From: Methanobacteriota archaeon
GTDB taxonomy: Archaea > Thermoplasmatota > Poseidoniia > Poseidoniales > Poseidoniaceae
Assembly: GCA_002689345.1 (NCBI GenBank)
Contig: NZFU01000022.1
Span: forward strand, 7,687-71,686
DNA length: 64,000 nucleotides
Direction of reading: 5' to 3'
The notes under the pieces were generated by a model. That model searched no databases, was not told the DNA's origin, and worked only from the letters and a program-made list of their open reading frames with translations. This document shows positions 2 through 58,420 of this stretch, one piece after another; the stretch's first letter is position 1; every line of letters starts with the position of its first letter. The position numbers and the translations under genes were made by a program.

Positions 2-3000
2 GACGAAAATAATGCTGCTAAACTAACAGGAAGTTCTACATCAGATTCAATCGAATTGATGATGGTTGCATCCACATGGGGAATTGAAGAAACCTCTTCT
101 CAATCTGTCAACCTATGTACTACTGAATCTGCAACTTGTAATCAACCATACCTAGAAATCACCTACGATTGGGATAGTAACGGACCTCCGGCTATTCCTA
201 CTCATGTCGCCCCATTGGACGGCCATTCAGTCTGGAATTTGTCCGGTCACAATCTATCGGGTAACACTATGCCAACTCTCGCATGGGATGGTAGTATTTC
301 TTGGACTGGAGACATGTTGATGCAGGTTTCGACAGATGCAGAGTACCGAAATATAATCCATTCTTTCGATACATCCTCTACTTCAGAATTCTCTGAAACT
401 GATGGGAATTGGTCTATCTCTGCAAATGATGCACTGCAAGATGGAATAATGTATCATTGGAGAATGGCTCAAGTTGATTCAACTACGAAACACCATTCTT
501 GGTGGTCTACTTCCTCTTTCCTAGTATCCGGCCTTGAATCAGAATATTTGCAAGCGAATGAAAGTATACTAAGGTTGTCGCATGGAAATGCAACAACTGC
601 AGGAGATGCTCCAAGTTGTGAAGACACGTATATCGACAGTGGAACTCCAAGTAACAACTACAACGGAGAAGATGAGATGCAAATCTCATACAACACATTC
701 CCTTCAGAAACATCAATCCTGATGGGATGCGACCTTACCAGTCATTTGTTGCCAAGTGGATATGCTGTGAAAACTGCTACCATGAAAATGCGACTTGCAG
801 ACTGGCCAACTGGTTCTCCAACCGTAGGTGCTTGGGAAAGTAGGCAACATAATTGGTCGGAATCTTCAGCAACATGGACCACATTTGATGGAACAAATAG
901 CTGGGGAACATCAGGAGCTAAAGGTTGGGAAAGAGCAGGGTTACTCGATTCTGAGACTCTAGGAAACTCCTATTCTGCAGGCGACTGGGTTGAATTTGAT
1001 ATCACCTTGGCGGTTCAGAATGCAATGCGTGAAGACAGGGCAGTAGACCTGGTTATTGGAGTAGTAGGAGTAGGTAGCGGTGCAGATAGAGATGCACTAT
1101 TCTATCCAAATCATGCTAACTCGGCTAATAGACCTGAGATTTCATTCGTATATGTACCAGGTTCTGATGCACTTCCTTCTGAACCAACACCTTTGACTCC
1201 ACTTAATGGGTCATGGTCAGTTGATAGTGGAATCAACCCTGCCCCAGATCAATCACCTCAATTAGCATGGAGTTTCTCCTCTACTGGAGTCAATGTAGGT
1301 GGATGGTCTATTGAATTAGACACCTCTAATTCATTCGACTCTCCAGATCTAATAATGGCCACAAGTTGGACAGATACTGGATTTGACCTCACTAACATGA
1401 CATATGACCTGAGTAGTTTATTGGAAACTGGAAACACTTGGCATTGGAGAGTCAGGGCAACAAGTACTACCAATCAAATTGGAAATTGGTCTTCAGTCTA
1501 TCACTTCTTGTTACCGGACATTACAACATGGGACCTCGGTTCTAATTCCTCTGCTGTAGAACTTCATCACAGAGATGCTATGCCTTCACTCAACCTTCCT
1601 AACTTCATCGACACTTGGGTGGCTGATTCAGGAGTTGGGGCAACTGCAGACCAATCTTCGTCTTCTACATTCAAGGTAGGAACAAATAGTACAGGAGTTA
1701 ATGCAACTGCTTTGATGAAAATTCCATTAACAGAATTACCTAATCCACAAAATGCGCATATTTCGAATGCTGTTCTAAACCTGTATGCGCAATTCGGCTC
1801 TGATACTGGAAATTCAATTTCTATTCATCCGGCTTTAGTAGCGTGGAATACTAGTGCTAATGGAACCACTTATGATGGTACAAATAATTGGTCATCACCA
1901 GGAGCTATGAGTGCTAATGATAGAGGAGTGATGTCCGATGTTAAATCAAGTGCATCCGCAGATTGGATGAACTTTGATGTTACCGAATTGGTTCAGGATG
2001 CATTTGCAAATGGTGAAACACACCTCTCGCTGATGATAGTTGGATCTATTGGCATGGGCCAGTCCGTATTCACATCTACCGACGGTGGTGTAAATGAAAG
2101 ACCATGGCTCAATTTGACTTGGACTACCGGTGCTGCATCTTCACCCGAATCAGCTGGTTCGAATGTTGCTCCTGCAGTAGATGAGATCATTTGGGACACA
2201 TCAACTCATGCACTCCTACCGGGAGATACTCCAAGTTTCACATGGACTCATTCCAACCCATCTAATGTTGATGATTGGAGACTATTCATTTGGGAAGACT
2301 ACTCCGATGAGAGGGCTGGATGGATCGTATATGATAGTCGTAAATCTACCAATGGCTGGGACATTACTAACTTAACATGGACATCTCCGTCTAGTTTGTC
2401 ATCTGGTGAATCCTACGAATGGTTTGTTCAACCGATTACCAACGATATACTTGGAGCACGTGGTAGTGACACAATATTCCATATTCCTGCAAATACTGGA
2501 AATAGCATCAATTCAACTGATGCAAACATCTCATTACAGGAAGGATTGATTGTAGAGGCATTAGATTACCCTGCAATATTTGTTGATACATTTGTGGATT
2601 CTGGCTCGGCTAATACAGCATTTGAAAGGAGTTCTGAATTGATAATGGGTCTCTCAAACTATTCCTCATCCTCCAATCATTATTCTCAGACAATGATGAC
2701 TATTGATTGGTCAGGCTTACCAATTCCTGCTTCGCATGAATTTGTTGATGCGGAATTGTCTCTTCACAAGATAAGTGGAGGAGAAGCAAACCAAGAGACT
2801 GTTAAGGTCGCTATCTGTGAGGTATTGGACACATGGAACTCTAGTGCTACTATGTCTGGACCAACTGGCGTAAACTCTTCTTGGAGTAATCCAAGATGTG
2901 ATGTACCATTTGAAATAGCAACTGTAGACCATCAAGACATTACCTCTCAATTTGATATCACTTACGCTGTACAACATGCGCATGCATCTGGACTAGACAA

Positions 3001-6000
3001 GGTGAATTTGATGTTCACGGTAGTGGGTAACAACTCGGATGAATGGCACTTTGCAAGTAGCAATTACAATGTTGATGTCGATGATAGGCCGGAAATAACA
3101 CTTACTTGGAGAACGGGTAATCAATGGTTACCATCTTCCCCAAGTAACTTATCTCCAGCTGATGGCACTACGTTGTGGAATACAACCTCATCTTTACCTC
3201 GCGGTGCTGATTCCATGGATTTCAATTTCACATCTCAAATTTCAAATGAATCAAGATGGATTGTTGAAGTCTCGCCTTCTCCACGATTTACTGAAGATGT
3301 ACAATTGATCGACTTAACTGACAACTCTACATTTGGAGGCATTTGGGATTATGCAAATCTAACATACACACTAGACACATCAGGAGATGCTGATGATTCA
3401 TGGGTATATTGGAGAGTAAGAGCAGAACAAGACCACAGGCTAGGAACTTGGTCCGCTCCTAACTCATACAGAGTACCAGGCGTAATAGGTTCAGATGATG
3501 GAGCAGGAAATAACACCGTGACGATGTATCAGGGCTCTGTTTTCGAAGAAAGTGGCTATTTGCCAACTATTCCTGATGCTACGATTGATTCAAACCGGGC
3601 AACTTCAAGTTTGGGTAACAATGGACAACTCGATCTGGGGATTTCATCTGGAGGTTCTGGTGAATCAAAGATTATGTTATCTTTCGATCTTTCTGAATTA
3701 CCATTCCCTGCTGCAATGACTCCTACTAGTGCACTATTGTCACTATACCGAAATAACGTATCAGGAACTTCATCTCTTACTGTAAGCGCGCATGCCTGTG
3801 ATACATTTACAGAAAATAGTGTAACTTGGAATAACGCTCCATCGTGTACTGTTGGTGAAGTTACACGTTCGACTATGTTAGTAGTACCAACCAATGGATG
3901 GCAGGTATGGGATATCACTTCACTAGCACAATCTAATGTAGCGAATGGAAATAATACTTTGACTGTGATGCTACAATCGGTTGGCTCACCATCTTCAGGA
4001 CATACATTCTATGATAATTCAGCTAGTGAATCATTTAGACCGAAATTGGTTCTTGATTACGTTGACAATGTGGATGGAGTTATTCCTCCTGCTCAACCTA
4101 CACTTACCTATCCGGGCGATGGAGATATTCTCTACAATACCAGTTCTTGGGTATTGGAATCACTAGATAAGCCTCAATTATCATGGAATAGTGTTACAAA
4201 TGCCACAGGATATATTGTGACTATTGCAAGTACAGATGGCCAACTGAAGTACAAGTCTTGGGAAGACTCTGAAATAAGTGGTACTACTTTCACGTTTAGC
4301 CAAGACCTCCTTGAAGGAGAAGTTTACAGTTGGTGGGTTCAAGCTATCAATGGCTCAATTCCGGGGCCATCATCAAGTCGTAGAACATTTGCGATAGGAT
4401 CACCTGTTGACCATTCATACAATGATGATCACACATGGACCTATACTTTCCAAACCGGAAATGAAGTTGCTGATTTGGGACACACAAATATCAGGGATTC
4501 ATACATTGGAAGTGGATTTGGTGATATGAACCACGGTTCTGAATCAATGAATGTTGGATTCAACTGTGAGGGTGCTAATACCGAATGTAGGTCAATAATT
4601 GCACTCGATAATAGTCAGGTACCATTGCCTTTAGGAGCGAAAATATATTATGCGGATTTGGTTTTGCAAATAGAGAATCCTCCTTCGGTGGCAATGGGTT
4701 TCAGTGTACATAGATTATTAACAAGCGCATGGAGTCAATCAGGCTCTACATGGAACAACTCTGCATCCAGCATACCTTGGAGTACTGGAGGAATGACTGC
4801 AGGCATAGATTATGAGGCCACACCAATCTCTGATGCCTTTTTCCAGATTGGAGATACTGAAGTATGGTTTGCTCTTGGTCACTCTAGTATGACTATGAAT
4901 GGTGACCACGGATGGATTATAATTGCAACATCATCCTCAGCAGATAGTATTGAATTCTATTCTAGTGAAAGTTCGCTAGAGAATCGACCAAAGATTTCAA
5001 TCCAATACACAGATGTTCATTCGGTTTCTATCTCACCTGCAGGTTCTACAACCGATGCAGATACTCAAGTTCAGTTTTCACATATTTTGAACGATGCATT
5101 AGGTGGAATGGTTGCAGAAGATGTCGAATGGTCAGCCAGTGATGGTTCAATCGACTATTCTGGATTATTTACTCCTGAGCATGTTGGGCTACACAATATT
5201 ACCGCTTGTTTCGGAGTTATATGTACTACTGAATCAATTACAGTAACTCCGGGTGCAGCAGATATTCTAGTTGTAGAAGATAGATTAGAAACAATTACTG
5301 CAGATGAGTCATTTACGATTGTTGCTGTAATCCATGACCAACATGGAAACATAGTTCCTGGATTGACAATAACATATACTCCATCTAATGGAACAATGAC
5401 TGGAACGACATTTTTCCCACACACATCGGGTAGTCAAACAGTATTAGTTGAGTGGGGTGAACAGAGCATCTTTGTTGATATCGAAGTATTAGCCGGCCTT
5501 CCTACACATTACATTACAAGTGGGTGTGAAGGAATCATACATGCTGGTGAGACTTGTCAATTAACTTGGACATTACATGACCAATATGAAAATATATTGA
5601 ATTTGGAGATTGGTGGTGGCATAACTTGGACTGCTGGCGGAGGTGTATTCACTGAAGACAACGGAACTTACTTTGCAATGACTGTCGGTAATTACAATAT
5701 CACTATGGCTTCAACAGGAGGAATAAATCATGTTATTCCAATAGAAGTAACAGATGGAGAAATGGCAAGTTTAGAAATCAATGCCTCCTCTACATTCGTC
5801 ACTGCTGATGATGTTGTATTCCTAAACACGACTCGTATTGATATTATGGGTAATCGCCTATCTGTTGTGATACCTCAGGAGAATTGGACTATTGCTGATG
5901 GAGATATTACTGCAGGTCAGCCGGCAGTATGGCACGCTCACCGAAGAGGAACAAAAACCCTAACTGCAAGTTATGCTGGAATTGATAGCAGTATTTCAAT

Positions 6001-7543
6001 TCAAGTAACTCAGGGAGTAATAGCCGGATTGACATTAACAATTGATGAAGAAGATGCAACCTCAACCCTACAAGAAATTACTGCAGATGATGAACTAACG
6101 ATCTATGCTTGGGCACATGATTCTGATGGTAACAAATGGTCTGAACAGGTCTCATGGTCAGTAGAGCATGTACAATTTGCGGACCAAAGTCTACTGCAAG
6201 AATTGACATATGGTAGTGAAACAAGATTTGCTCCTTTGAGGTCGTCTGAGGATTACTATACACTACGTGCTACTTACTCAGATAGTGAATTACCTGCCCC
6301 TCTAAGTGTTACATTACAGATTTCTGTAAGCCATGGAGATTTAGTCAAAGTGATATTACCAGGATTACCAGATAATCAAAATGAAGAAATTCTCAAAACT
6401 GCTGATGATGAATTATCATTCCAACCAGTATTGTATGATGGAGACAACAATACAATTGACCCCTCTATCATCTCTTACACCTTAGAAAACCGAGAAACTG
6501 GAGTTAAAACAAATATTACATCTACAATCATTGATGAGTCCGGAACATGGAATGCTACTTTGGTGGGTGAGTGGAAGATTACCGCTTGGGCTATTTCTGA
6601 AAATGGATATAATATTACTAGATATGCCAATATTACCGTAACCCATGGTGTTGCGAATTCTGTTGCTATTGATGTCATTGCAAATACTGCCACAGCAGGA
6701 GATAAATACACATTGACAATTACAGCAACTGACTATGATGGAAACACTTTCTTGACCGAAGTATTGTGGAAACAGGGCATTTCAGTACCTACTACAATTA
6801 GTGCCATAGATACTGGAATTTATGAGTGGAGTGCCACGACAGCTGGAGAACATACATTTGATTTCAATACTGGAAACCAAAAATTCGGTCAATGGACTGT
6901 TACGGTTTCAGCACACCATATTGTCGATAGAATTGAATTGACAATACTAGATGATTCTGCTCTACAGTTGGAATCGTATGAAATTGAAGTACATACATTT
7001 GATGCATGGAATAACGAGATACCGGTTCCACCAGAAACTCAGGTTAAATTGACAGGAAGAATGTCTGCTGAGGCTGGAGAAAATGGAATGTGGACTATCA
7101 CGACCATGGATGATGGTGAGCAAACAGTTACCATTACGGTTCACAATGAAGAAGTTTCAGACACTATAGTTGTTGAAGGTACTTTCATGGGATTCTTTGA
7201 ATCCGGAGGAACCCTATACTATGCTGGTGGTATCTTGGCGATTCTAGTCGTCCTAGTACTCCTAGTAGTCATCGTAATGGTTCTGCGTTCTGGCGGATCT
7301 GAGTATGATGATGAAGATGATGATGATTACGAGTATGATGATGATGACGATGATCTGCAACAAACTCAGGATTTAGGTCCTGGCCCTGGCGGTCCACCTC
7401 CTTCATCTGAGCCACAGCAACCCGATTGGGCGGTCGATTACCGAATCGATGATGACGATGGAACCGCATGGGCTGAGGCAGAGGATGGAACTTGGTACTA
7501 CTGGGATAATGACACATCTGGTTGGGAAGAATGGGCAGATTGA
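2..7543 (+). CDS. Giant surface protein, 5'-partial. It has at least 6 tandem FN3-like + DNRLRE-like supermodules, then Big_2-style Ig repeats, a C-terminal TM anchor and an acidic, Pro- and Trp-rich cytoplasmic tail
   Basis: Frame 2 has no stop from nt 2 (DENNAAKLTG... precedes the track start at 56), so the N-terminus lies upstream of the window. A module-ending motif recurs: NQPYLEITYDW (~145), NRPEISFVY (~1130), ERPWLNLTW (~2096), DRPEITLTW (~3085), FRPKLVLDY (~4036), NRPKISIQY (~4985). These alternate with FN3-like W(H/Y)WR(V/M).A segments. Ig-like repeats (...ITA...VTPG) span ~5010-7150. The TM is GGILAILVVLVLLVVIVMVL (~7222-7287), followed by a D/E-rich tail. Confidence 0.85.
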   Translation, partial: DENNAAKLTGSSTSDSIELMMVASTWGIEETSSQSVNLCTTESATCNQPYLEITYDWDSNGPPAIPTHVAPLDGHSVWNLSGHNLSGNTMPTLAWDGSISWTGDMLMQVSTDAEYRNIIHSFDTSSTSEFSETDGNWSISANDALQDGIMYHWRMAQVDSTTKHHSWWSTSSFLVSGLESEYLQANESILRLSHGNATTAGDAPSCEDTYIDSGTPSNNYNGEDEMQISYNTFPSETSILMGCDLTSHLLPSGYAVKTATMKMRLADWPTGSPTVGAWESRQHNWSESSATWTTFDGTNSWGTSGAKGWERAGLLDSETLGNSYSAGDWVEFDITLAVQNAMREDRAVDLVIGVVGVGSGADRDALFYPNHANSANRPEISFVYVPGSDALPSEPTPLTPLNGSWSVDSGINPAPDQSPQLAWSFSSTGVNVGGWSIELDTSNSFDSPDLIMATSWTDTGFDLTNMTYDLSSLLETGNTWHWRVRATSTTNQIGNWSSVYHFLLPDITTWDLGSNSSAVELHHRDAMPSLNLPNFIDTWVADSGVGATADQSSSSTFKVGTNSTGVNATALMKIPLTELPNPQNAHISNAVLNLYAQFGSDTGNSISIHPALVAWNTSANGTTYDGTNNWSSPGAMSANDRGVMSDVKSSASADWMNFDVTELVQDAFANGETHLSLMIVGSIGMGQSVFTSTDGGVNERPWLNLTWTTGAASSPESAGSNVAPAVDEIIWDTSTHALLPGDTPSFTWTHSNPSNVDDWRLFIWEDYSDERAGWIVYDSRKSTNGWDITNLTWTSPSSLSSGESYEWFVQPITNDILGARGSDTIFHIPANTGNSINSTDANISLQEGLIVEALDYPAIFVDTFVDSGSANTAFERSSELIMGLSNYSSSSNHYSQTMMTIDWSGLPIPASHEFVDAELSLHKISGGEANQETVKVAICEVLDTWNSSATMSGPTGVNSSWSNPRCDVPFEIATVDHQDITSQFDITYAVQHAHASGLDKVNLMFTVVGNNSDEWHFASSNYNVDVDDRPEITLTWRTGNQWLPSSPSNLSPADGTTLWNTTSSLPRGADSMDFNFTSQISNESRWIVEVSPSPRFTEDVQLIDLTDNSTFGGIWDYANLTYTLDTSGDADDSWVYWRVRAEQDHRLGTWSAPNSYRVPGVIGSDDGAGNNTVTMYQGSVFEESGYLPTIPDATIDSNRATSSLGNNGQLDLGISSGGSGESKIMLSFDLSELPFPAAMTPTSALLSLYRNNVSGTSSLTVSAHACDTFTENSVTWNNAPSCTVGEVTRSTMLVVPTNGWQVWDITSLAQSNVANGNNTLTVMLQSVGSPSSGHTFYDNSASESFRPKLVLDYVDNVDGVIPPAQPTLTYPGDGDILYNTSSWVLESLDKPQLSWNSVTNATGYIVTIASTDGQLKYKSWEDSEISGTTFTFSQDLLEGEVYSWWVQAINGSIPGPSSSRRTFAIGSPVDHSYNDDHTWTYTFQTGNEVADLGHTNIRDSYIGSGFGDMNHGSESMNVGFNCEGANTECRSIIALDNSQVPLPLGAKIYYADLVLQIENPPSVAMGFSVHRLLTSAWSQSGSTWNNSASSIPWSTGGMTAGIDYEATPISDAFFQIGDTEVWFALGHSSMTMNGDHGWIIIATSSSADSIEFYSSESSLENRPKISIQYTDVHSVSISPAGSTTDADTQVQFSHILNDALGGMVAEDVEWSASDGSIDYSGLFTPEHVGLHNITACFGVICTTESITVTPGAADILVVEDRLETITADESFTIVAVIHDQHGNIVPGLTITYTPSNGTMTGTTFFPHTSGSQTVLVEWGEQSIFVDIEVLAGLPTHYITSGCEGIIHAGETCQLTWTLHDQYENILNLEIGGGITWTAGGGVFTEDNGTYFAMTVGNYNITMASTGGINHVIPIEVTDGEMASLEINASSTFVTADDVVFLNTTRIDIMGNRLSVVIPQENWTIADGDITAGQPAVWHAHRRGTKTLTASYAGIDSSISIQVTQGVIAGLTLTIDEEDATSTLQEITADDELTIYAWAHDSDGNKWSEQVSWSVEHVQFADQSLLQELTYGSETRFAPLRSSEDYYTLRATYSDSELPAPLSVTLQISVSHGDLVKVILPGLPDNQNEEILKTADDELSFQPVLYDGDNNTIDPSIISYTLENRETGVKTNITSTIIDESGTWNATLVGEWKITAWAISENGYNITRYANITVTHGVANSVAIDVIANTATAGDKYTLTITATDYDGNTFLTEVLWKQGISVPTTISAIDTGIYEWSATTAGEHTFDFNTGNQKFGQWTVTVSAHHIVDRIELTILDDSALQLESYEIEVHTFDAWNNEIPVPPETQVKLTGRMSAEAGENGMWTITTMDDGEQTVTITVHNEEVSDTIVVEGTFMGFFESGGTLYYAGGILAILVVLVLLVVIVMVLRSGGSEYDDEDDDDYEYDDDDDDLQQTQDLGPGPGGPPPSSEPQQPDWAVDYRIDDDDGTAWAEAEDGTWYYWDNDTSGWEEWAD
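7301..7357 (+). repeat. Coding GAT/GAC/GAA-rich low-complexity run (EYDDEDDDDYEYDDDDDD)
   Basis: gagtatgatgatgaagatgatgatgattacgagtatgatgatgatgacgatgat lies in the cytoplasmic tail of the first giant protein. Confidence 0.9.
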
Positions 7544-7593
7544 GCTGTAACTTAGTAATACATTGAACATTTATTTTGTTGGGGGAGATTTCT

Positions 7594-10194
7594 GTGAAAA
7601 GAGGAGTGCTTTCATTATTGGTGGTACTTCTATTAGTCCAGATTTCGGCACCTGTTTTTGCAGCAACACCTGCAAGCATACAAATTGATTCACACACTCA
7701 AAGTGTCAGTGCCGATCAAGCTGTTAGGTTCAATGCAGTAGTAAAGGACTCTTCAGGTAGTCCAATCAATGAAGAAATCATTTGGAGTACAAGTTCTGGC
7801 ATTATTGATTCAGATGGCCTCTTTACTCCGGGATTAGCCGGACAAACAACTATCACAGCGAGTAGTGGGAATGTTAATTCAACTACAACAATTGATGTTG
7901 TACCTGGATGGCCAGTAGGTATTCAATCGGGATTCAATGTTACCGAAGTTAGTGTTGATGATGAGATTCAACTTAACGCTACACTTGTCGATAGAGCAGG
8001 GAATCCAGTACCTGGTGATTTAACTTGGCGATGTCAAAACGGAGAGATAGATCATACTAACAATACCTGGAAGCCAGATGAAGTAGGAAATGCAACTATG
8101 AGAATAATCTACTTGGAATTAGAGAATCAAGTGATTTTTAATGTAGTTCCTGGTGCTCCAAGTACGCTCGATTTGCCATTTGGATTAACTGTTCAGAGTG
8201 GTACAACGATTCACATCCAACCAACTGCCAAGGACGCATTAGGAAATGAAGTTGGAATATCTAAAGCCGGGGAATTAACTTGGACTGCTGAAAACGGTTC
8301 AATTTCACCAACTGGAGTGTATTTTGGTTCAGCCCCGGGAGTATGGAATATATCGGTCAATAGCACATCTGGAGCCATTGGCCAGGGGGTAATACGTGTA
8401 TTACCTGCACAAGCGACTGGCCTTGATATCGAAATGGATGTGACTCAGGCCAGAACTGGTTCATCAGTCATTTTATCTGCGATTCGAACCGATGTTTTAG
8501 GAAATTCAGGCCAAGTTATACTTCCATTGGCAAATTGGACTGTACCCACTGGTTCTCTCTCTATGGATGGGGATTCTGTAATATGGACACCATCTAGAAT
8601 TGGAGATTGGACAATTGGCGTCAACGACCAAGGGTTCTCGGCTACTATGCAGGTGAATGTTGTTCAGGGAGTCATCATTGGAATCGATGTACTTCTATCA
8701 GAAGATGTATTACGTTCTGGAGATTCAATTGTCGCTTCTGTATCAGCATATGATGCTGCTGGAAACCATAGAGCAGTTGATGGAGCATGGACTATTGCTA
8801 GTGAATTAGGTCCTGAAGATCAAGGTGGATGGATGCAATTGAGACCGGGCCCAACCGGAAACTACTCCATTTCAGCAACCTGGTTCGATAATGAAACTCA
8901 AACCGTTCATGATGTAGATTCAATTTTGAATATTATTCCAGGTGAATTAGCAAGAATTGTTCTTCCTGAGAGTGGTACGCGTGTACCATCAGATGGGGTA
9001 CTAAACCTTCAACCAATTTTTGAAGATGAATTTGAAAATATAGTAGATGATGTTCTAGTAACTTGGATAGTTGATGATGTTGACCTGACTATGGAAATAC
9101 GTTTAGCAGGTGAAAAATGGGCTCCATCTTCTCTAGGTATGCATGAGATTAGAGCAATGGCACAAGGGGTTTTCGCCATCACTGATGTTGAAGTTATTGC
9201 AGGCACTGCAAGGCATATCTCTACCGATTATGATGATGGAATACAAGTTGATAGTGGAGAGACCGTAGAAATTCAAATTTCAACAGCAGATGTTCATGGT
9301 AATCTTGCTCTCGCATCAAGCGTCGACTTCGATTACGATGACCCACAAGGAGAGATATCACCTTCATCCAAAGGTGATGGGTACTGGATTATCGAAGGTG
9401 GCGAGGCTGGAGAGTGGAATCTAAGATTCCAGACTGGGTCTGCAACCCTCGACGTTATGGTTACTGTTTCTCCTGGCCAACCGGTTAGATTACTGGCTGA
9501 AATTCCTGAACAAAACCCAGAAGAAGGAAGTGAGATGATTATCAGAATCTATGCCATTGACCAAGCGGGCAATAGAATTGATGTTCCTTCAGATGATGTT
9601 GAAATCAAATGTACTGTCGGTTCGACCAAACACATTTCTGGAGATACATATGAGGTATCTGTTGACCAAGCAGGACAATCGCAATCGTGTAATGCATACT
9701 GGAATGATTTAGTGGCACAACGTTTCTTCGATGTGGATGCGGTTTTGTTTGGAGGCGGACTTGGTGATTCTAATACTGCCCTAACAATGGTCTCGATTAT
9801 CATTTTCTTATTCATTGCAATCATGCTAGTTCTGATTCGCAAGATGAAGAGTGATAAAGAAGATGCCGACTATTGGGAAGATGATGATTTAGATGAATTT
9901 GAAGACGAAGATGAAGTCGAAGAAATCCAATCAAATGATGTGGCCAAAACAACTCCAGAAAAAGAGCAGGCAAAGCATGTTCCTGAGGTTGCTGCAAAAC
10001 AAGATACTGAAGCTGTTCAAGAAGAATCCAAAGAGCAGTTGCGAGCAAGACTTGCTGCTGAAGCAAAGCGCACTGGTGTTATGCAAGCAGCACCTGGTAC
10101 TGAACAGGGTAAAACCGGTTGGTACATAGATTCTAGTGGAGAATTAACTTCTTGGTTGGTTTCTGATAGCGGTGAATGGACTCGAATGTCCTGA
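7594..10194 (+). CDS. Surface protein made of ~8 Big_2-style Ig-like repeats, with a signal peptide, C-terminal TM anchor and charged cytoplasmic tail
   Basis: The track ORF starts at TTG 7576. GTG 7594 gives a classical signal peptide, (M)KRGVLSLLVVLLLVQISAPVFA|ATPAS, with GGGGGAG just upstream. Repeats of the type IQIDSHTQSVSADQAVRFNAVVKDSSGSPI...GLFTPGLAGQTTITA...VVPG occur. The TM is MVSIIIFLFIAIMLVLI (~9781-9840). The tail ends GKTGWYIDSSGELTSWLVSDSGEWTRMS. Confidence 0.8.
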   Translation: MKRGVLSLLVVLLLVQISAPVFAATPASIQIDSHTQSVSADQAVRFNAVVKDSSGSPINEEIIWSTSSGIIDSDGLFTPGLAGQTTITASSGNVNSTTTIDVVPGWPVGIQSGFNVTEVSVDDEIQLNATLVDRAGNPVPGDLTWRCQNGEIDHTNNTWKPDEVGNATMRIIYLELENQVIFNVVPGAPSTLDLPFGLTVQSGTTIHIQPTAKDALGNEVGISKAGELTWTAENGSISPTGVYFGSAPGVWNISVNSTSGAIGQGVIRVLPAQATGLDIEMDVTQARTGSSVILSAIRTDVLGNSGQVILPLANWTVPTGSLSMDGDSVIWTPSRIGDWTIGVNDQGFSATMQVNVVQGVIIGIDVLLSEDVLRSGDSIVASVSAYDAAGNHRAVDGAWTIASELGPEDQGGWMQLRPGPTGNYSISATWFDNETQTVHDVDSILNIIPGELARIVLPESGTRVPSDGVLNLQPIFEDEFENIVDDVLVTWIVDDVDLTMEIRLAGEKWAPSSLGMHEIRAMAQGVFAITDVEVIAGTARHISTDYDDGIQVDSGETVEIQISTADVHGNLALASSVDFDYDDPQGEISPSSKGDGYWIIEGGEAGEWNLRFQTGSATLDVMVTVSPGQPVRLLAEIPEQNPEEGSEMIIRIYAIDQAGNRIDVPSDDVEIKCTVGSTKHISGDTYEVSVDQAGQSQSCNAYWNDLVAQRFFDVDAVLFGGGLGDSNTALTMVSIIIFLFIAIMLVLIRKMKSDKEDADYWEDDDLDEFEDEDEVEEIQSNDVAKTTPEKEQAKHVPEVAAKQDTEAVQEESKEQLRARLAAEAKRTGVMQAAPGTEQGKTGWYIDSSGELTSWLVSDSGEWTRMS

Positions 10195-24471: not shown

Positions 24472-27400
24472 ATGTCGCGCAGAGTGAATGCACTCATCTT
24501 GGTCATTGTAATGGCTGTTGCACCCCTAGTTCCACTAGCAAGTGCACACCCTAACATCGGTTTATCTACCGATGTGAATCATGTTATCTTGTCACCGGGT
24601 GAAGCAACCAACATAACATTAACAATCGATAATAATGGATCAACTATCGAAACCTATTCCGTTGCTGTATCTGGATTCGATTCAGTATGGGAAATTATTC
24701 CAGCAGATTCCAATGTCACCAACGTAATCCCAACATTAAGTGCATCGACGACAATCGCTGTACGTTTAGCCACTAATGCTCTGCCAAGCAATTCTGGAAC
24801 ACTAACGATCACGGTTACTGAACCTGATGCAAATATTTCGAGTTCAATCGATGTACTAATCTCGGTACAGGCCCGATATCTTCCGGCAATCGATGCATCT
24901 AGTGCAGGAGATAATGGCCTGGTTCAAATGGCACCGGGAGATGAACTAAATCTATCGATATCTGTTACAAATAATGGAAATGTCGAAGATACAATTTTGC
25001 TTTCTGTAGATCAAACCCCTGATCTGGCAGGATTTTGGGCAAACTGGACAACCTCCGGAAATCAAAGTAATAATTCTTCAAACAATGGAACTGGAAATAA
25101 TTCTAGTAGTGGAAATACAACTATTTTGAATAATGTTCTGATGTTTGGTAATAGTTATACCCAATCTAATAATTTGAATCTAATGCTTGAAGATTTTGGA
25201 ATTGTTAATGCTGATGCGATTACCTCTGGTGGACAGAAATTATCAGGGCACTGGAATAATGTAAATACTCCAAGTCATGTATCTAACACGACACTTCGCG
25301 ATAACAACACGACATGGGATTATGTGATTTTACAAGATCAAAGTCAGGTTCCTGGTTTTTATCGCTCCAATAGTGACTGGATTGATAGCAAAAATGGCGC
25401 AGTATCTTTGGCTGGTGCAATTGATGATGAAAGTTCAGAAGCGGTTCTAATGATGACATGGGGCCGCAGAAGTGGAGATACAAACAATCCAACAATGTAT
25501 TCCAATTTCTCAGTAATGCAGGATAGATTAGAGGATGGATATATCGATTATCGAGACAATATGTCGAATTCTACTATTGATGTTTGGATTGCGCCGGTGG
25601 GTCTTGCATTCCAGCATATTCACGATGCAGTTAATGCTTCAGGCACAGATCCTACTACAAGTGGAAATACATTTTACGATTTGTATAGTTCAGATGGAAG
25701 TCACCCCTCGTTGTCAGGCAGTTATCTTGCAGCATGTGTTCTCTATGCCACTATGACTGGTGCTTCACCAGTTGGTTCTAACGATTCAATTTCATTGGCT
25801 AGCAATTTGAAATTGGAGTTACAACAGGCAGCGGCTGCTACCGTATTCAATGAAACTTCACACCTTTCTTACCCATGGCAAAATAATAACGCTACAACCT
25901 TGATGTCTAGCCCTCAAGGCTGGGAAGTTAGATTCCTAGACGATACAATGGACAATATGTCTGCAGGAGAAACAAGAATGGCTACATTAAAAGTTTCAAT
26001 TCCTGCTAATGAAAATCCTGGATATTATGGATTTGAATTATTTGCAGCTAGTGCCTTAGGTAATTTTTCACTGAGCACTACCATGGTGGTTAACGTTACA
26101 GCCGTGCATGATTTATCATTCACTCATATTGCAGGAGATATGTTGCTGCCTGGAGCAAATACAACATCTACAATACAAATCACCAGCCTCTCTACAGCAG
26201 ATGGCGATTGGACTTGGCAAACCGGAATTATATCTGGCAACTGCTCTGCACATTTAGCTGATTTACAAACAATGATTCCAGCCAGTGGCACATATGATAT
26301 TGAGATTGAGATTATTGCAAGTGCTAATACGCATGTTAATGATGAATGTGAAGTCTCTCTTCAAGGAATACTAGATATTGATTCATCAATTATGGAAGAT
26401 TATCAATTTTCAGTCACCGTTGGTGAGATGTGGGCTCTATCCATGGTTCTGCCAACATCGATTAAATTAGATGTTGATGAGGCTGAAACATTCAATGTTG
26501 TAGTCAGTAATGATGGTACAGAAGAAGATACGATTTCACTTATTGGGATTGACTCTGAAGGGGTTACATTCACCAATCCATCTCCTGTAACATTAGCGAG
26601 AGGAACTTCGGTTTATGTTGTAATGGAAGTTATGATAGATTCGGCATTAGTAGGAAATATCACTCTTGATTTCACTATGTCATCGACCAACAGTGGAGTA
26701 GGGAGCATAAACGAGAGTGGATTATTCGAAGTAAAAGAATACGCTGAGTTAGCGATGACAGGACCTGCAGATGGCCGAATTGTCATCACCCCTGGACAAA
26801 ACTCCTCGGTAATGCTCAATGTATCTAATGATGGTACAAGAGATCTAGAATTGTCTGTCTCGATCAGTGGTCTACCGAATGGAATAACTGTACTGCAGGG
26901 AATAGAGAATCTAAATCTAGATGCTGGCAGTTCTTCAGATATTGAACTTGAATTACTTGCGGCTTCTGGACTTCAACCTAGTAGTGCTACTTTTACAATA
27001 ACATTTGATGGCGGATGGTCATCAACACAATTGACTATGGATTTACAAATAGCCGATCGGCATGAAGTATTGGTAGATTCTAGTGAAGATCGAATCATTG
27101 CATCGCCATTGAGTGATTCGGAACTGACGGTATTGATTACAAATTTAGGTACTTCAACCGAAACGTTCGTTGCTAACATTGACAATTCACAGGTCAATGA
27201 TTGGTTCACGATAAGTGTTGATACCCTTTCACTTACCCTTGAATCTGGACAATCTGGAAGTATTACATTATCTGCTAGAGAAATTTCAGCAGGGGCACCA
27301 GTTAGTGGTAGCCCCTTGATAATTACAATTACCAGTACCGCTGATTCTGAAGTTACAGATTCGTTAGAAATAGAAATTGTCCCACAAGTTGCTGACGGCC

Positions 27401-28383
27401 TAATCACTGTAATGAGTGATGATGATGAAGCAGAACCTGGAGAAGCAATTTATGGTAATGTAATAATTACGAATCTTGGAACAGCTACCGACTCAATGAC
27501 AATCGATACCGTTGAAATGGATTGTAATATTGATGATGTCGCAATTGAGTTGGCACCAAGTATGTCATCTTCTCCTATCCCATGGTCATGTACTATTGGA
27601 GAAAATGAAAATGCAGGAATGAATGCATTGACATTTAGATTAACTTCTGCAACTCGCTCTAATATGATGGTCACTGCAACTGAAGCTTACACTGTAGAGC
27701 CGACCTGGAGTAGCAATGTTATTGCATTTACATTCGATAAAAATGACCTTGTTTTCGATGAAAGTATCGAACAACAAACGATTTCTATAACCGTTTGCAA
27801 TCAAGCAAATACCTATGTTGAGGGGAGTTTGGAATTAATTGGAAAGAATGAGCCACAGATGGATGGATTATTCTACCGAGCAGGTGAAACTGGTATCAAT
27901 TCGACATACAGTCTTGCTAGTAACGGTTGTCAAGACTTCCGCTTGATGCTAACTCCACTAAATCTAGATGGCTTCGATGCAGTTTTGACTATCAATTCAG
28001 TTAGTCAAGTTGAGGGGCAAACTGTTCGAGATGTATCGCCTGAATTAAGAGCAGAGGTAGCAGGCCCTCATCTCCCGCCTGATGGTTTGAATTTAGGACT
28101 CTTTGAATTGGACAATAAAAACTCACTAATTCTACTATCAACCGGATGGGTTCTTTCACTCTTGTTACTGGCATATATTCGCTTATTTAGAAAGCCTGTA
28201 GCCGAAGAAGAGGAAGAAGAGGAAGAAGAAATTCCACTTGGACCAAATGAAGTTCGTGTCGATGAATACAACAAGGTCACATGTTGTTCATGTGAAGCCA
28301 GATTAGGTGTACCTGAAGGAAGTGAGCCACCATTCAGATTTACTTGTCCTAAGTGTGACACCCGAATCCGAGTTGTTGAGTAA
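24472..28383 (+). CDS. Large S-layer-like surface protein with CARDB/NEW3-like Ig-fold repeats, an inserted SGNH/DUF4886-like domain, a C-terminal TM anchor, and a poly-Glu + zinc-ribbon cytoplasmic tail
   Basis: The signal peptide is MSRRVNALILVIVMAVAPLVPLASA. Repeats of the type LSPGEATNITLTIDNNGSTIETYSV and VVSNDGTEEDTISL occur. The SGNH-like block spans nt 25126-25776. The TM is LILLSTGWVLSLLLLAYI. E9 spans 28204-28230. CCSC...CPKC spans 28276-28356. Confidence 0.85.
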   Translation: MSRRVNALILVIVMAVAPLVPLASAHPNIGLSTDVNHVILSPGEATNITLTIDNNGSTIETYSVAVSGFDSVWEIIPADSNVTNVIPTLSASTTIAVRLATNALPSNSGTLTITVTEPDANISSSIDVLISVQARYLPAIDASSAGDNGLVQMAPGDELNLSISVTNNGNVEDTILLSVDQTPDLAGFWANWTTSGNQSNNSSNNGTGNNSSSGNTTILNNVLMFGNSYTQSNNLNLMLEDFGIVNADAITSGGQKLSGHWNNVNTPSHVSNTTLRDNNTTWDYVILQDQSQVPGFYRSNSDWIDSKNGAVSLAGAIDDESSEAVLMMTWGRRSGDTNNPTMYSNFSVMQDRLEDGYIDYRDNMSNSTIDVWIAPVGLAFQHIHDAVNASGTDPTTSGNTFYDLYSSDGSHPSLSGSYLAACVLYATMTGASPVGSNDSISLASNLKLELQQAAAATVFNETSHLSYPWQNNNATTLMSSPQGWEVRFLDDTMDNMSAGETRMATLKVSIPANENPGYYGFELFAASALGNFSLSTTMVVNVTAVHDLSFTHIAGDMLLPGANTTSTIQITSLSTADGDWTWQTGIISGNCSAHLADLQTMIPASGTYDIEIEIIASANTHVNDECEVSLQGILDIDSSIMEDYQFSVTVGEMWALSMVLPTSIKLDVDEAETFNVVVSNDGTEEDTISLIGIDSEGVTFTNPSPVTLARGTSVYVVMEVMIDSALVGNITLDFTMSSTNSGVGSINESGLFEVKEYAELAMTGPADGRIVITPGQNSSVMLNVSNDGTRDLELSVSISGLPNGITVLQGIENLNLDAGSSSDIELELLAASGLQPSSATFTITFDGGWSSTQLTMDLQIADRHEVLVDSSEDRIIASPLSDSELTVLITNLGTSTETFVANIDNSQVNDWFTISVDTLSLTLESGQSGSITLSAREISAGAPVSGSPLIITITSTADSEVTDSLEIEIVPQVADGLITVMSDDDEAEPGEAIYGNVIITNLGTATDSMTIDTVEMDCNIDDVAIELAPSMSSSPIPWSCTIGENENAGMNALTFRLTSATRSNMMVTATEAYTVEPTWSSNVIAFTFDKNDLVFDESIEQQTISITVCNQANTYVEGSLELIGKNEPQMDGLFYRAGETGINSTYSLASNGCQDFRLMLTPLNLDGFDAVLTINSVSQVEGQTVRDVSPELRAEVAGPHLPPDGLNLGLFELDNKNSLILLSTGWVLSLLLLAYIRLFRKPVAEEEEEEEEEIPLGPNEVRVDEYNKVTCCSCEARLGVPEGSEPPFRFTCPKCDTRIRVVE
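28204..28230 (+). repeat. Coding GAA/GAG run (nine consecutive Glu codons)
   Basis: gaa gaa gag gaa gaa gag gaa gaa gaa lies directly after the TM anchor of the 24472-28383 protein. Confidence 0.9.
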
Positions 28384-32200: not shown

Positions 32201-32682
32201 TTGCAAAATTGAATACTGAAATTGAAGGATTAACTGAAGGCACTCCAGAATATGAAGAGGCAAAGGTTGAGCTTAATGAGTTAGAACAAGAGCGCAAAGA
32301 TGCTTGTGAATACACCACATGTATAACACAAAATTCTGGTTCTGGAGAAGATGTTGAAGAATCAACACTAGATCTAACAGTAATTTTAGCCGTAATTGGA
32401 GTGGTTATCATTGCACTATTAGCTGGATTAATGTTCATGCGCGGAGGCAATGGAGAAACATCTGAAGTGATGGTCAACTGGGCTAATGAATTACCTTCTA
32501 ATGATGTAGTTGCAAACTCGATGTATGGAGGAGCACAAGAGATCTTCCAGCAACCTGTTGCAGTACCTGCTACAGTGGTTCAACAAGTTCCTCCAGGAGC
32601 ACCACCTCTGCCAGCTGGCGGTCTACCTGCAGGCTGGACTATGGAGCAGTGGGCATATTACGGGCACCAGTACCAACAGTAA
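29266..32682 (+). CDS. Large surface protein with an N-terminal thioredoxin-fold-like WCGPC domain, Ig/cadherin-like repeats, a coiled coil, a TM anchor, and a Pro-rich WW-like cytoplasmic tail
   Basis: The signal peptide is MKTVRATAFSIVALMLISILASFGG. HWCGPC lies at 29446-29463. PINDAPRLNL and acidic repeat domains are cadherin-like. The coiled coil is EEVVELVAELDAAIAKLNTEIEGL. The TM is VILAVIGVVIIALLAGLMF. The tail ends ...PPGAPPLPAGGLPAGWTMEQWAYYGHQYQQ. Confidence 0.85.
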   Translation: MKTVRATAFSIVALMLISILASFGGLVAENENINSQLADEPVEMEATSPGHPVFAEYMGAHWCGPCITATNNLKNLYSTNGGGGTQSADFTFVSFWESQTSGWPADSPINRRSHIQNAPGYTGGIPVTVFGDAPSGTYYTVGGQSYDSYYQNGGNMHNANDYALSVTQSENGNNMDIEITAVYSGSGSKNVYLYAAVTEEKGYEPYTAGSGSDHPPNLWKKWLLNSGSNGFETFTLTSGTPVTKTWTVPTSTARAVSGISSADNFLTVAALLDGDHSSHRNVISAADSNMAPTIDVGVKTFTTNNPSAPNGGYINGDFIDLEATIVNNGVDAYSDGGSVKFFYKANNQPVYVGQTHSLATFANNGDTQIFNGQIDTTNIPESAYQTTFGVEISNLVADKSSNNNDATEIIPHDLEPVARKAQVIGSNEIERGDDFLVEAKTTFNDGVDTDTSFFTFELKVKSADETDWDLYPGIVTGGDEIFQAGTANEHCQFLVSPDMAMGAGYYDIQVRSIDSRSQESNWQITENAFELKNALPIINSEPVHSVKVESGDQSSLTVDAQDQRVDISANVMDAETDLKDLVITSDSPNFIGWHSETGEIEVYFDTIRFVNGQPAASGIEISVFDGIDTAFGTLLFNVVENGQPRWAGVEKQYVDEGTTASLFLLPYLSDTDENGNVVSAENLNIAIVDNTNEELLNLTLNGFTLNFATADDDITGETTLKIRASDGQSESDQLITIAINPINDAPRLNLSELEGLRLKVGTQKVIFLNEILSDVDGDVDDVYVTASNPTPGAARINILDNTLTLLWENEGMQTVTIQVEDRYDSNIYVLVVDVYDSMPLLVGDGPDADLRVSVSNVYIGEVPEVTMFLNMDDVTVTDLTTTWRLCNAEYCSLQEIHEHDITSKSVGWTFDPVKGQIDDSGMAPFHYIELAKVTAIASNGDKFEFKDSMKWTADEMPPGPDTMTDEEVVELVAELDAAIAKLNTEIEGLTEGTPEYEEAKVELNELEQERKDACEYTTCITQNSGSGEDVEESTLDLTVILAVIGVVIIALLAGLMFMRGGNGETSEVMVNWANELPSNDVVANSMYGGAQEIFQQPVAVPATVVQQVPPGAPPLPAGGLPAGWTMEQWAYYGHQYQQ

Positions 32683-57901: not shown

Positions 57902-58420
57902 TCAACCAAGGTTGTTCCAAGTTCTTAGAACAGATGCCTGACTGGTTGGAGGCACATAGCTAACTGACAAGAATACATCCTCAATCAGGTTGCCATCTGC
58001 ATCAACAGACTTGACATATATGGTGTCGCCAGTGTCGAAACTTGACTTCACTGCACCGCCTTCACTACCAACTGCGTCGGTAAAGGTCACCATACTATCT
58101 GAGTTACCAGGGTAGAATCCATACACTGTAGGATCTGCCAAATTGTAAGACTCAGATACTGAGACACCATTCGATGTGTAGCTCAGTGATACCTGTATTG
58201 CTTGAGTTGCCAATTCTACTTGGCTACCTGTAACAACAATACGATGGAAATCACCGTTCGATTCAACATCGAAACTCATACGAGGAACTCCCTTTGCAGA
58301 TGTGTCTGCAAGGCTAGATGCCCAGACGTATATTACACCAGATAGAACCACTGTGATTGCAACCATTAGGATGGTAGCAATAACTGGGCTCACCGCTTGC
58401 TCGTCGTCTTCAAGAATCAT
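57902..58420 (-). other. Archaeal type IV pilin-like module (Pilin_N/DUF1628-like). It is either the C-terminal domain of the giant protein or a nested gene starting at ATG 58420
   Basis: The 172 aa read MILEDDEQ-AVSPVIATILMVAITVVLSGVIYVWASSL, followed by a ~135-aa beta-rich domain. The hydrophobic core is near-identical to the conserved (A/G)VSPVIGVILMVAITV motif of archaeal pilin-like proteins as I recall it. There is no stop codon between it and the upstream adhesin. Confidence 0.65.

What the first reader, a model, noticed from the sequence alone, without database searches (positions are those of the whole stretch)
7222..7543. Adhesin cytoplasmic tail 1: acidic run, Pro-rich stretch, and a terminal WW-domain-like Trp motif
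After the TM anchor the tail has three parts:
- EYDDEDDDDYEYDDDDDD;
- GPGPGGPPPSSEPQQP;
- a terminal W-AEAED-G-T-W-Y-Y-W-D-N-D-T-S-G-W-E-E-W-AD (nt 7469-7540).

The first and last Trp are 21 residues apart. There is a central G-x-(W)-Y-Y aromatic strand and a D-N-D-T turn. This is the spacing and order of a WW domain (W...G..YY.N..T....W), though the terminal Pro is missing.

Related motifs end two other surface proteins in this window (10108-10191 and 32602-32679). One of those also carries PPLP, a classic WW-ligand type.

Tails combining WW-like modules and proline-rich ligands on single-pass cadherin/Ig-like adhesins would resemble a eukaryote-style receptor-to-cytoplasm coupling or tail-tail lattice system in an archaeon.
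Basis: inference. Interest (0 to 1): 0.6.

Follow-up and report, generated by a model that had tools for sequence, protein, structure and literature searches.

The report
Trp-rich tail-end module, marine archaea
The giant surface protein of this Marine Group II archaeon ends inside the cell in a real, conserved 40-residue tryptophan-rich beta-sheet mini-domain on an acidic tether; about 15 unrelated membrane proteins per genome share it, it fails the tests for a true WW domain, and its partner is unknown.

Summary
The tail is as described: TM helix (7217-7285), acidic run (7301-7354), Pro/Gly stretch (7376-7423) and a Trp-rich end (7421-7540).

- **Not composition.** A leave-one-out profile scores the Trp motif at 25-29 bits; the best of 5000 shuffles scores 14.6.
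- **Shared module.** It closes 13 proteins with unrelated ectodomains, opens one type II protein, and ends one soluble protein in this 1.68 Mb Poseidoniaceae genome.
- **Conserved.** It is present in orthologues across all Poseidoniaceae and five Thalassarchaeaceae-type genera. It was absent from the sister order and 230 other genomes of the phylum.
- **Fold.** AlphaFold gives a confident (pLDDT 89) four-stranded meander. This resembles a single propeller blade more than a WW domain.
- **No family match.** WW, DUF2510 and EAGR-box models all fail. Pfam and NCBIfam hold nothing.
- **The two "related" tails.** One is a doubtful, distant relative. It has its own helix plus three strands. The PPLP tail is an unrelated module that also occurs in 13 genomes lacking this one, so there is no obligate WW-PPLP pairing.

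The most likely role is a tethered cytoplasmic docking or clustering module. That role is inferred, not shown.

The parts
2..7543 (+). 3' 7.5 kb of the giant surface-protein gene. The window cuts its 5' end; in the genome the frame is 3052 codons stop to stop. It has a signal peptide, CBM96 modules and Ig-like repeats.
7217..7285 (+). Single transmembrane helix YYAGGILAILVVLVLLVVIVMVL, followed by Arg (positive-inside), so the tail is cytoplasmic.
7286..7420 (+). 45-aa tether, net charge -18. It holds the acidic Asp/Glu/Tyr run (7301-7354) and the Gly/Pro-rich spacer (from 7376; it runs to 7423, so its last residue is also the first residue of the module). Among 19 orthologues the tether is 33-64 aa. 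The acidic-aromatic character is kept; the Pro-rich part is variable and absent in family f3.
7421..7540 (+). Module A, 40 aa: PDWAVDYRIDDDDGTAWAEAEDGTWYYWDNDTSGWEEWAD. Predicted four-stranded antiparallel meander with strands at residues 4-9, 16-20, 25-29 and 34-37.
7576..10194 (+). Neighbouring 872-aa Ig-repeat surface protein. The gene pair is conserved across Poseidoniaceae genera. TM helix at 9778-9837.
10027..10191 (+). Private 55-aa tail module of the neighbour: helix LRARLAAEAKRTG, then GVMQAAPGT.QG, then three strands GWYI / LTSWLV / WTR. pLDDT 94.5. At best a distant relative of module A.
32590..32679 (+). Module B, PPGAPPLPAGGLPAGWTMEQWAYYGHQYQQ, at the end of the 1138-aa surface protein (29266-32682). 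A different, order-wide tail module, unrelated to module A.

Best explanation
The end of the tail is one copy of an undescribed mini-domain ('module A') specific to Poseidoniales. It is about 35-40 residues long, very acidic and Trp-rich, and is predicted to fold on its own into a four-stranded antiparallel beta-meander.

Consensus: h-x-V-D-E-D-G-T-E-W-Y-E-D-x-x-G-x-W-W-Y-R-x(4-6)-W-x-E-W.

It hangs in the cytoplasm at the far end of a 23-148-residue acidic, low-complexity tether behind the membrane anchor. The same module ends about a dozen surface proteins per genome whose ectodomains are unrelated, one polytopic protein and one soluble protein. It also starts one N-in type II protein.

**Shown**
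- The family is real and is not a product of composition.
- It always lies on the predicted cytoplasmic side.
- It is conserved across the order.
- The predicted fold is confident.
- No described family matches it.

**Inferred**
- It is a protein-protein docking unit on a flexible leash.
- It plugs a co-distributed set of accessory surface proteins into one shared cytoplasmic partner, or into each other by edge-strand or aromatic-face association.
- This would cluster, position or retain those proteins.
- The acidic run would keep the leash extended and away from the membrane.
For: **Family and chance**
- 15 copies in this genome.
- Leave-one-out score of 25-29 bits against a maximum of 14.6 in 5000 shuffles.

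**Position and topology**
- Of the 61 full-length, single-module matches among database representatives, 58 end within 4 residues of the C-terminus.
- Basic residues follow the TM helix. The one N-terminal copy precedes a TM helix, and one carrier has no TM helix at all. All of this is consistent with a cytoplasmic location.

**Carriers are unrelated**
- Ectodomains include CBM96/Ig, TSP3, WD40 and FG-GAP/fn3.
- 12 of 69 type-I-like ORFs carry module A. Modules A, B and C and the Zn-ribbon ends were never found on the same tail.

**Distribution**
- 2-15 copies in every Poseidoniaceae genome and in five Thalassarchaeaceae-type genera.
- None in five small-genome genera, the sister order, or 230 other genomes of the phylum.

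**Orthologues**
- In 19 orthologues the module is conserved (mean identity 55%). The tether varies from 33 to 64 aa, and its mean identity of 41% is inflated by low complexity.

**Fold**
- AlphaFold2 gives pLDDT 88.8 with four strands.

**Co-distribution**
- Two unrelated carriers, the giant adhesin and the FG-GAP protein, are present in 5/5 module-positive Thalassarchaeaceae-type genera tested. Both are absent from 13/13 module-negative genomes.

**Multivalency**
- Natural tails exist with 2 and 5 tandem copies.

**Undescribed**
- No hit in Pfam-A or NCBIfam, and no paper found.
Against: - No partner was identified.
- The two co-occurrence tests both came out negative. Neither the archaellum nor the order-wide polyproline protein tracks the module.
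- Self-association could not be tested, because no multimer prediction was available.
- The joint presence and absence of carriers may reflect a single genome-streamlining event rather than functional linkage.
- The fold is a prediction for a 40-residue peptide from a 40-sequence alignment.
- A 4-strand sheet with aromatics on both faces might need a partner in order to fold at all.
Confidence: 0.6

Rival explanations
1. It is a true, divergent WW domain. It would bind proline-rich peptides, namely the PP[LIV]P core of module-B tails, the order-wide polyproline protein, or its own Pro-rich spacer. This would give a tail-tail or tail-adaptor lattice.
For: - The pattern W..(D)G.(W/Y)YY..(D/N)....W..aromatic resembles WW domains.
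- One canonical copy hits Pfam WW_2 at E 0.008.
- Bacterial look-alike modules found by the same profile hit Pfam WW at E 0.006-0.1.
- The FE65 WW domain appears at E 0.74 in the PDB profile search.
- Pro-rich segments and a cytoplasmic polyproline protein exist in the same cells.
Against: - No hit reaches a curated cut-off.
- The Pfam WW model finds none of the tails in six genomes.
- hhalign probability against a WW alignment is 1.2%.
- Four strands are predicted, and no WW entry is among the top 50 fold matches.
- The conserved Trp spacing is 18, and an aromatic replaces the Pro.
- Module B and the polyproline protein occur in 13 genomes without module A.
- The Pro-rich spacer is not conserved.
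Confidence: 0.12
2. It is a free-standing beta-propeller blade. Copies from different tails would co-assemble in trans into a propeller-like ring, or complete an open propeller, beneath the membrane.
For: - Four-stranded meander.
- The best structural matches are tectonin, WD40 and HIRA beta units (TMq 0.6-0.72, rmsd 1.4-2.2 A).
- The profile picks up PQQ-type designer propellers and tectonin-like repeats at the hairpin level.
- Tandem copies exist.
Against: - All Foldseek E-values are 0.36 or higher, and any 4-strand meander matches blades.
- Sequence matches cover only a 16-residue hairpin, summed over repeats.
- Copy number per genome varies from 2 to 15.
- Tandem copies in the bacterial example are separated by roughly 20-aa acidic linkers, like beads on a string.
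- No multi-blade partner resembling the module exists in the genome.
Confidence: 0.13
3. It is not an interaction module. It would be a fast-folding cap that fixes topology or stability: a knob that keeps the highly acidic tail inside the cell, resists extraction of the anchor under load, or protects the C-terminus from cytoplasmic proteases.
For: - It sits at the extreme end in nearly all carriers.
- Trp-zipper-like cross-strand aromatics suit a tiny, very stable fold.
- No partner was found.
Against: - The same module occurs at an N-terminus and on a soluble protein.
- It is conserved in sequence across unrelated carriers far more than a mere stable hairpin requires.
- Other tails in the same genome manage with quite different ends.
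Confidence: 0.1

Closest known systems
WW domain (Pfam PF00397; e.g. FBP28, Pin1, YAP65 WW)
   Same: About 30-40 residues. All-beta, Trp/Tyr-rich, with Gly/Asp/Asn turns. Used in eukaryotes as a cytoplasmic protein-docking unit. The order of aromatic positions is similar.
   Different: Four predicted strands, not three. Conserved Trp pair 18 apart rather than 20-23. No terminal Pro. No significant HMM, profile-profile or fold match. An extra N-terminal strand. Net charge about -10.
Single blade of a beta-propeller (tectonin, WD40, PQQ type)
   Same: Four-stranded antiparallel meander of the same size. Best, though weak, structural matches. DG-turn plus aromatic hairpin motif.
   Different: Occurs singly at a chain end, not as 4-10 tandem blades closing a ring. 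No family-level sequence match.
EAGR box with acidic and proline-rich (APR) domain of Mycoplasma terminal-organelle proteins (MG200, MG312/HMW1, MG386; PF16713; PMC9262362)
   Same: The same three ingredients in cytoplasmic proteins that couple adhesins to the cell interior: an acidic stretch, a Pro-rich stretch, and a roughly 30-residue aromatic- and glycine-rich box.
   Different: The EAGR-box HMM finds no Poseidoniales tail. EAGR boxes sit in soluble cytoskeletal proteins, not on the adhesins' own tails. Bacteria, not archaea. This is an analogy of design only.
Proteome-wide C-terminal sorting tags (PGF-CTERM/archaeosortase, LPXTG/sortase)
   Same: One short C-terminal element shared by many unrelated surface proteins of a lineage.
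   Different: Those tags are a motif plus TM helix plus a few basic residues, and they are cleaved. Here a folded domain lies 23-148 residues beyond the TM helix, and it also occurs at an N-terminus and on a soluble protein.

Membership tests
WW domain (PF00397 / WW_2 PF23518) | Match to the family HMM at or above the curated cut-off | tested here: not met
   No hit on this tail at E<=10. The best Pfam hit on a Poseidoniales copy is WW_2 at 16.1 bits against a cut-off of 27. PF00397 finds no tail in six genomes. Only 3 of 40 members give sub-threshold WW or WW_2 hits.
WW domain (PF00397 / WW_2 PF23518) | Two signature Trp 20-23 residues apart and a Pro three residues after the second | tested here: not met
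   The family-conserved Trp are 18 apart (W17, W35). Position +3 is W/F/Y/H/L, never Pro, in Poseidoniales copies.
WW domain (PF00397 / WW_2 PF23518) | Three-stranded twisted antiparallel sheet that superposes on solved WW domains | tested here: not met
   AlphaFold2 gives four strands. No WW entry among the 50 best Foldseek matches in the PDB.
WW domain (PF00397 / WW_2 PF23518) | Binds proline-rich or phospho-Ser/Thr-Pro peptides | not testable with these tools
   Needs ITC, NMR or a multimer prediction. Indirectly, the candidate Pro-rich ligands do not co-vary with the module.
Beta-propeller blade | Four-stranded antiparallel meander | tested here: met
   Strands at residues 4-9, 16-20, 25-29 and 34-37, pLDDT 88.8.
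Beta-propeller blade | Significant structural or sequence match to a propeller repeat family | tested here: inconclusive
   Tectonin, WD40 and HIRA matches have TMq 0.6-0.72 but E>=0.36. HMM hits to designer propellers cover only a 16-residue hairpin, summed over repeats.
Beta-propeller blade | Four or more tandem blades closing a ring in one chain or a defined oligomer | tested here: not met
   One copy per protein in this genome. Rare tails carry 2 or 5 copies separated by linkers. The oligomeric state could not be tested.
EAGR box (PF16713) | Match to the family HMM | tested here: not met
   No tail hit in six Poseidoniales genomes. Only noise at E>=0.07 elsewhere.
DUF2510 (PF10708) | Match to the family HMM | tested here: not met
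   Only noise (E>=0.06), none at any tail. No hit in hmmscan of the tails.
C-terminal sorting signal (PGF-CTERM type) | Signature motif directly before a terminal TM helix plus a short basic tail | tested here: not met
   The module lies 23-148 residues after the TM helix, is predicted to fold, and also occurs N-terminally and on a protein without a TM helix.

The most novel reading that the evidence does not exclude
Poseidoniales may sort much of their surface proteome by a cytoplasmic 'tail code'. Several distinct tail-end modules, never seen together on one tail, each sit on a charged leash: A (this one), B (PPxP..GLPxGWTMEQW), C, zinc ribbons and others. Module A would be a free-standing blade-like or WW-like unit. 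It would link a co-inherited set of accessory adhesins to one another, or to an unknown sub-membrane scaffold. That would be an archaeal form of outside-in coupling. It would be comparable in design to eukaryotic receptor tails or the Mycoplasma EAGR/APR terminal-organelle proteins, but evolved independently.
Probability: 0.2. Interest if true: 0.8.

Novelty: new variant of a known kind. Interest (0 to 1): 0.55.

Why it matters
Marine Group II archaea are among the most abundant planktonic archaea and remain uncultured. How their huge surface proteins are anchored, organised or connected to the cell interior is unknown.

A folded cytoplasmic module shared by about a sixth of the single-pass surface proteins implies a common intracellular partner or a self-associating layer. 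It is conserved across the order and is gained or lost together with its carriers.

The module is only 40 residues long. It can be synthesised and used directly as bait or for structure work, so it offers a practical way into the cell biology of an uncultured lineage.

It also shows that a WW-like sequence pattern can arise on a different four-strand scaffold. That is a caution for motif-based annotation.

Tried and rejected
- **Composition.** Rejected by shuffles.
- **Known families.** Pfam-A on tails, whole proteins and all 40 aligned members, and NCBIfam, give no family.
- **Specific HMMs.** WW, DUF2510 and EAGR-box models run on six genomes hit no tail.
- **PDB by profile.** Only hairpin-level hits to designer propellers and choline-binding repeats.
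- **Module A related to module B.** hhalign 0.2%. Rejected.
- **Module B as an obligate partner of A.** B is present in 13 genomes without A. Rejected as obligate.
- **Link to the archaellum.** Archaellin is absent from five A-positive genomes (genera g3, g4, g17) and present in all three genomes of the A-negative genus g10. Rejected.
- **Polyproline protein C26_429 as an A-specific ligand.** The protein and its poly-Pro stretch are order-wide, including A-negative genomes. Not discriminating.
- **Tail swapping in A-negative genomes.** Both carriers tested are simply absent there.
- **Viral copies.** None in IMG/VR by pattern plus tblastn, which is a weak test for a 35-aa query (one search failed for lack of conserved columns).
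- **Close relatives of the neighbour gene.** A related-loci search of genome contigs found nothing.
- **Fold search with the neighbour's tail model.** Nothing meaningful.
- **Literature.** Three searches found no description.
- **Neighbourhood of the soluble carrier C9_251.** Nothing telling.
Full report
**Observation.** The window opens inside a giant gene (2..7543, +). In the genome (contig C46) the frame is 3052 codons long and starts with a signal peptide. Its end reads as follows, with coordinates:

- TM helix YYAGGILAILVVLVLLVVIVMVL (7217-7285)
- Arg
- EYDDEDDDDYEYDDDDDD (7301-7354)
- GPGPGGPPPSSEPQQP (7376-7423)
- DWAVDYRIDDDDGTAWAEAEDGTWYYWDNDTSGWEEWAD, then stop

**Is it chance?** A scan of all six-frame ORFs of the 1.68 Mb assembly (GC 0.43) found the same kind of ending on many large ORFs. 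Fifteen copies were aligned (A1). A profile built without this tail scores it at 25.3-29.1 bits. The best of 5000 shuffles of the same residues reaches 14.6. Composition does not explain the motif.

**Who carries it.** The carriers fall into four groups:

- Twelve are type-I proteins: signal peptide, large ectodomain, one TM helix, then a tail.
- One is polytopic.
- One (C9_251) has no TM helix.
- One (C48_404) has the module at its N-terminus, about 100 residues before a pilin-like helix, so that copy is also on the N-in side.

Basic residues follow each TM helix. Ectodomains are unrelated: CBM96/Ig, Ig, TSP3, WD40, FG-GAP/fn3, or no known domain. Tethers between helix and module are 23-148 aa long with net charge -4 to -37.

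In a rough census, 12 of 69 type-I-like ORFs end in module A, 6 in module B, 2 in a third motif and 4 in zinc ribbons. No tail carries two of these modules.

**Organism and distribution.** The adjacent Lon protease is 88-94% identical to Candidatus Poseidoniaceae MAGs, that is Marine Group II. The A1 profile gave these results:

- 2-15 copies in every genome of the window's family
- copies in a second family
- copies in five genera of the third family
- none in five small-genome (1.3-1.6 Mb) genera of that third family
- none in the sister order
- none in 230 further genomes of the phylum

Against 1.84 billion representative proteins, 80 score E<=0.001. Most are short metagenomic fragments that end in the module. 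Of the 61 full-length single-module matches, 58 end within 4 residues of the C-terminus. The rest are repeat proteins (choline-binding, PQQ- or tectonin-type) matched only hairpin by hairpin.

**Orthologues.** Twenty tails of the giant adhesin were fetched from four Poseidoniaceae genera and two genera of the third family; 19 could be compared. They keep the design R + acidic/Tyr run + spacer + module. The module consensus is DTSW.V.HRVDDDGTEWAEDENGTWWYR....EW.EW.. with mean identity 55%. The tether varies from 33 to 64 aa. The (G/S/A)P spacer is absent from the third-family orthologues.

**Fold.** AlphaFold2 on a 40-sequence alignment (A3) gives pLDDT 88.8 and four strands at residues 4-9, 16-20, 25-29 and 34-37. 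Foldseek against the PDB finds nothing significant (best E 0.36). The best superpositions are four-strand units of HIRA, tectonin-2 and WD40 blades (TMq 0.6-0.72). No WW domain is among the top 50.

**WW membership.** Every test failed:

- Pfam gives nothing on this tail.
- One canonical copy hits WW_2 at 16 bits, against a cut-off of 27.
- Only 3 of 40 members give sub-threshold WW-type hits, and the two PF00397 hits appear to come from a non-Poseidoniales look-alike.
- The WW model run over six genomes hits no tail.
- The PDB profile search lists one WW domain, at E 0.74.
- The conserved Trp are 18 apart, and an aromatic replaces the Pro.

DUF2510 and the Mycoplasma EAGR box, both recalled as possible relatives, also fail. 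NCBIfam has nothing. No paper was found.

**The two 'related' tails.**

*The neighbour (7576-10194).* It ends GWYIDSSGELTSWLVSDSGEWTRMS.
- Left out of the profile, it scores 8.1 bits, which 24 of 5000 shuffles reach.
- Its orthologue profile aligns to A3 in the same register at 83% probability. That falls to 9.9% once its own row is removed.
- Its tail is a private, highly conserved 55-residue unit: a helix followed by three strands, pLDDT 94.5, with no structural match.

*The third tail (32590-32679).* It belongs to module B, PPxP..GLPxGWTMEQWxYYG.
- It is unrelated to module A.
- It is present in 31/31 Poseidoniales genomes tested, including the 13 without module A, and in 0/7 of the sister order.
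- Its PPLP is therefore part of another module, not a dedicated ligand of this one.

**Search for a partner or context.**
- Archaellin does not track module A.
- A cytoplasmic polyproline protein (C26_429) is order-wide, and its poly-Pro stretch is also present in A-negative genomes.
- No viral copy was found.
- The giant adhesin and the FG-GAP carrier are both present in 5/5 A-positive genera of the third family and absent from 13/13 A-negative genomes. The module disappears because its carriers disappear together. This may be a single streamlining event.

**Interpretation.** What is shown is a new, lineage-specific mini-domain that faces the cytoplasm and sits at the end of an acidic leash on many unrelated membrane proteins. 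The function is inferred: docking to a shared partner, or mutual association. It rests on five observations:

- the module is shared between unrelated carriers
- it is tethered
- it does not depend on which chain end it occupies
- it occurs on a soluble protein
- natural tails exist with 2 and 5 tandem copies

The nearest design analogue is the Mycoplasma combination of an acidic and Pro-rich domain with an aromatic-glycine box in adhesin-coupling proteins (PMC9262362). There is no detectable homology to it.

**Earlier notes.** Notes from this scan on other Poseidoniales genomes describe the same modules. I treated them as leads. Here I independently reproduced the family, its distribution, the blade-like fold and the failure of the WW tests.

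Noticed in passing
window 28276-28380 (gene 24472-28383, +): The 1303-aa surface protein ends in a poly-Glu run plus a CxxC...CxxC zinc ribbon on the cytoplasmic side (Pfam Zn_ribbon_FGT1_2, E 2.5e-5). Four type-I ORFs of the genome end in such ribbons.
   Followed up: partly
window 32590-32679: Module B, PPxP..GLPxGWTMEQWxYYG, closes at least 8 large ORFs in this genome. It is found in all 31 Poseidoniales genomes tested and in none of 7 genomes of the sister order.
   Followed up: partly
window 57902-64000 (-): A >2000-aa adhesin continues past its TM helix into a short acidic linker and an archaeal type IV pilin-like module (Pfam Pilin_N, E 5.5e-8).
   Followed up: no
genome contig C48:9176-10387 (-), outside the window: A 404-codon ORF has module A at the N-terminus, then a Q/S/T/P/Y-rich linker, then a pilin-like helix (LVPAIIIVLSGILYVWASSLA) and TSP3-type repeats. 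It is the only N-terminal copy in this genome. An ORF of similar length (403 aa) with a module-A hit is present in at least one genome of the same genus.
   Followed up: partly
genome contigs C27, C33, C71, C58, C22, C4, C7 (outside the window): Other recurring tail ends on big type-I ORFs: EFPQW..IQ.YFDQGW.IESL..W; GY..E.ARAYA.Q[YH]F; and terminal ..LDDL. These suggest several more tail classes.
   Followed up: no
window 7301-7354 and loci L091-L110: The membrane-proximal acidic run always has Tyr or Trp sprinkled through it (DYDDDDDYDDDDDD). This holds in 19 orthologues, including those of the third family. It is a conserved acidic-aromatic patch with no explanation.
   Followed up: partly
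proteins P0012 (909 aa) and P0091 (278 aa), public metagenomes: P0012 looks bacterial: signal peptide, TM helix, then five tandem TDENGNTFYVDDNGAYYYYD..TEQW.PC modules and a long QPMYGQPQYQQ repeat in the cytoplasmic tail. Its modules give weak Pfam WW hits. P0091 is a TM-anchored tail with two module-A copies in tandem.
   Followed up: partly
window 7544-7575 and loci L124-L143: The giant adhesin and the 860-875-aa Ig-repeat protein form a same-strand gene pair 32 nt apart. The pair is kept across at least four Poseidoniaceae genera.
   Followed up: partly
genome contig C26:29931-31217 (-), outside the window: Cytoplasmic polyproline protein (LPPPPGLPPMPMPPPPGMP...) with a coiled coil and a duplicated acidic C-terminal module. 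It is found in most genomes of every Poseidoniales genus tested (25 of 27 genomes).
   Followed up: partly
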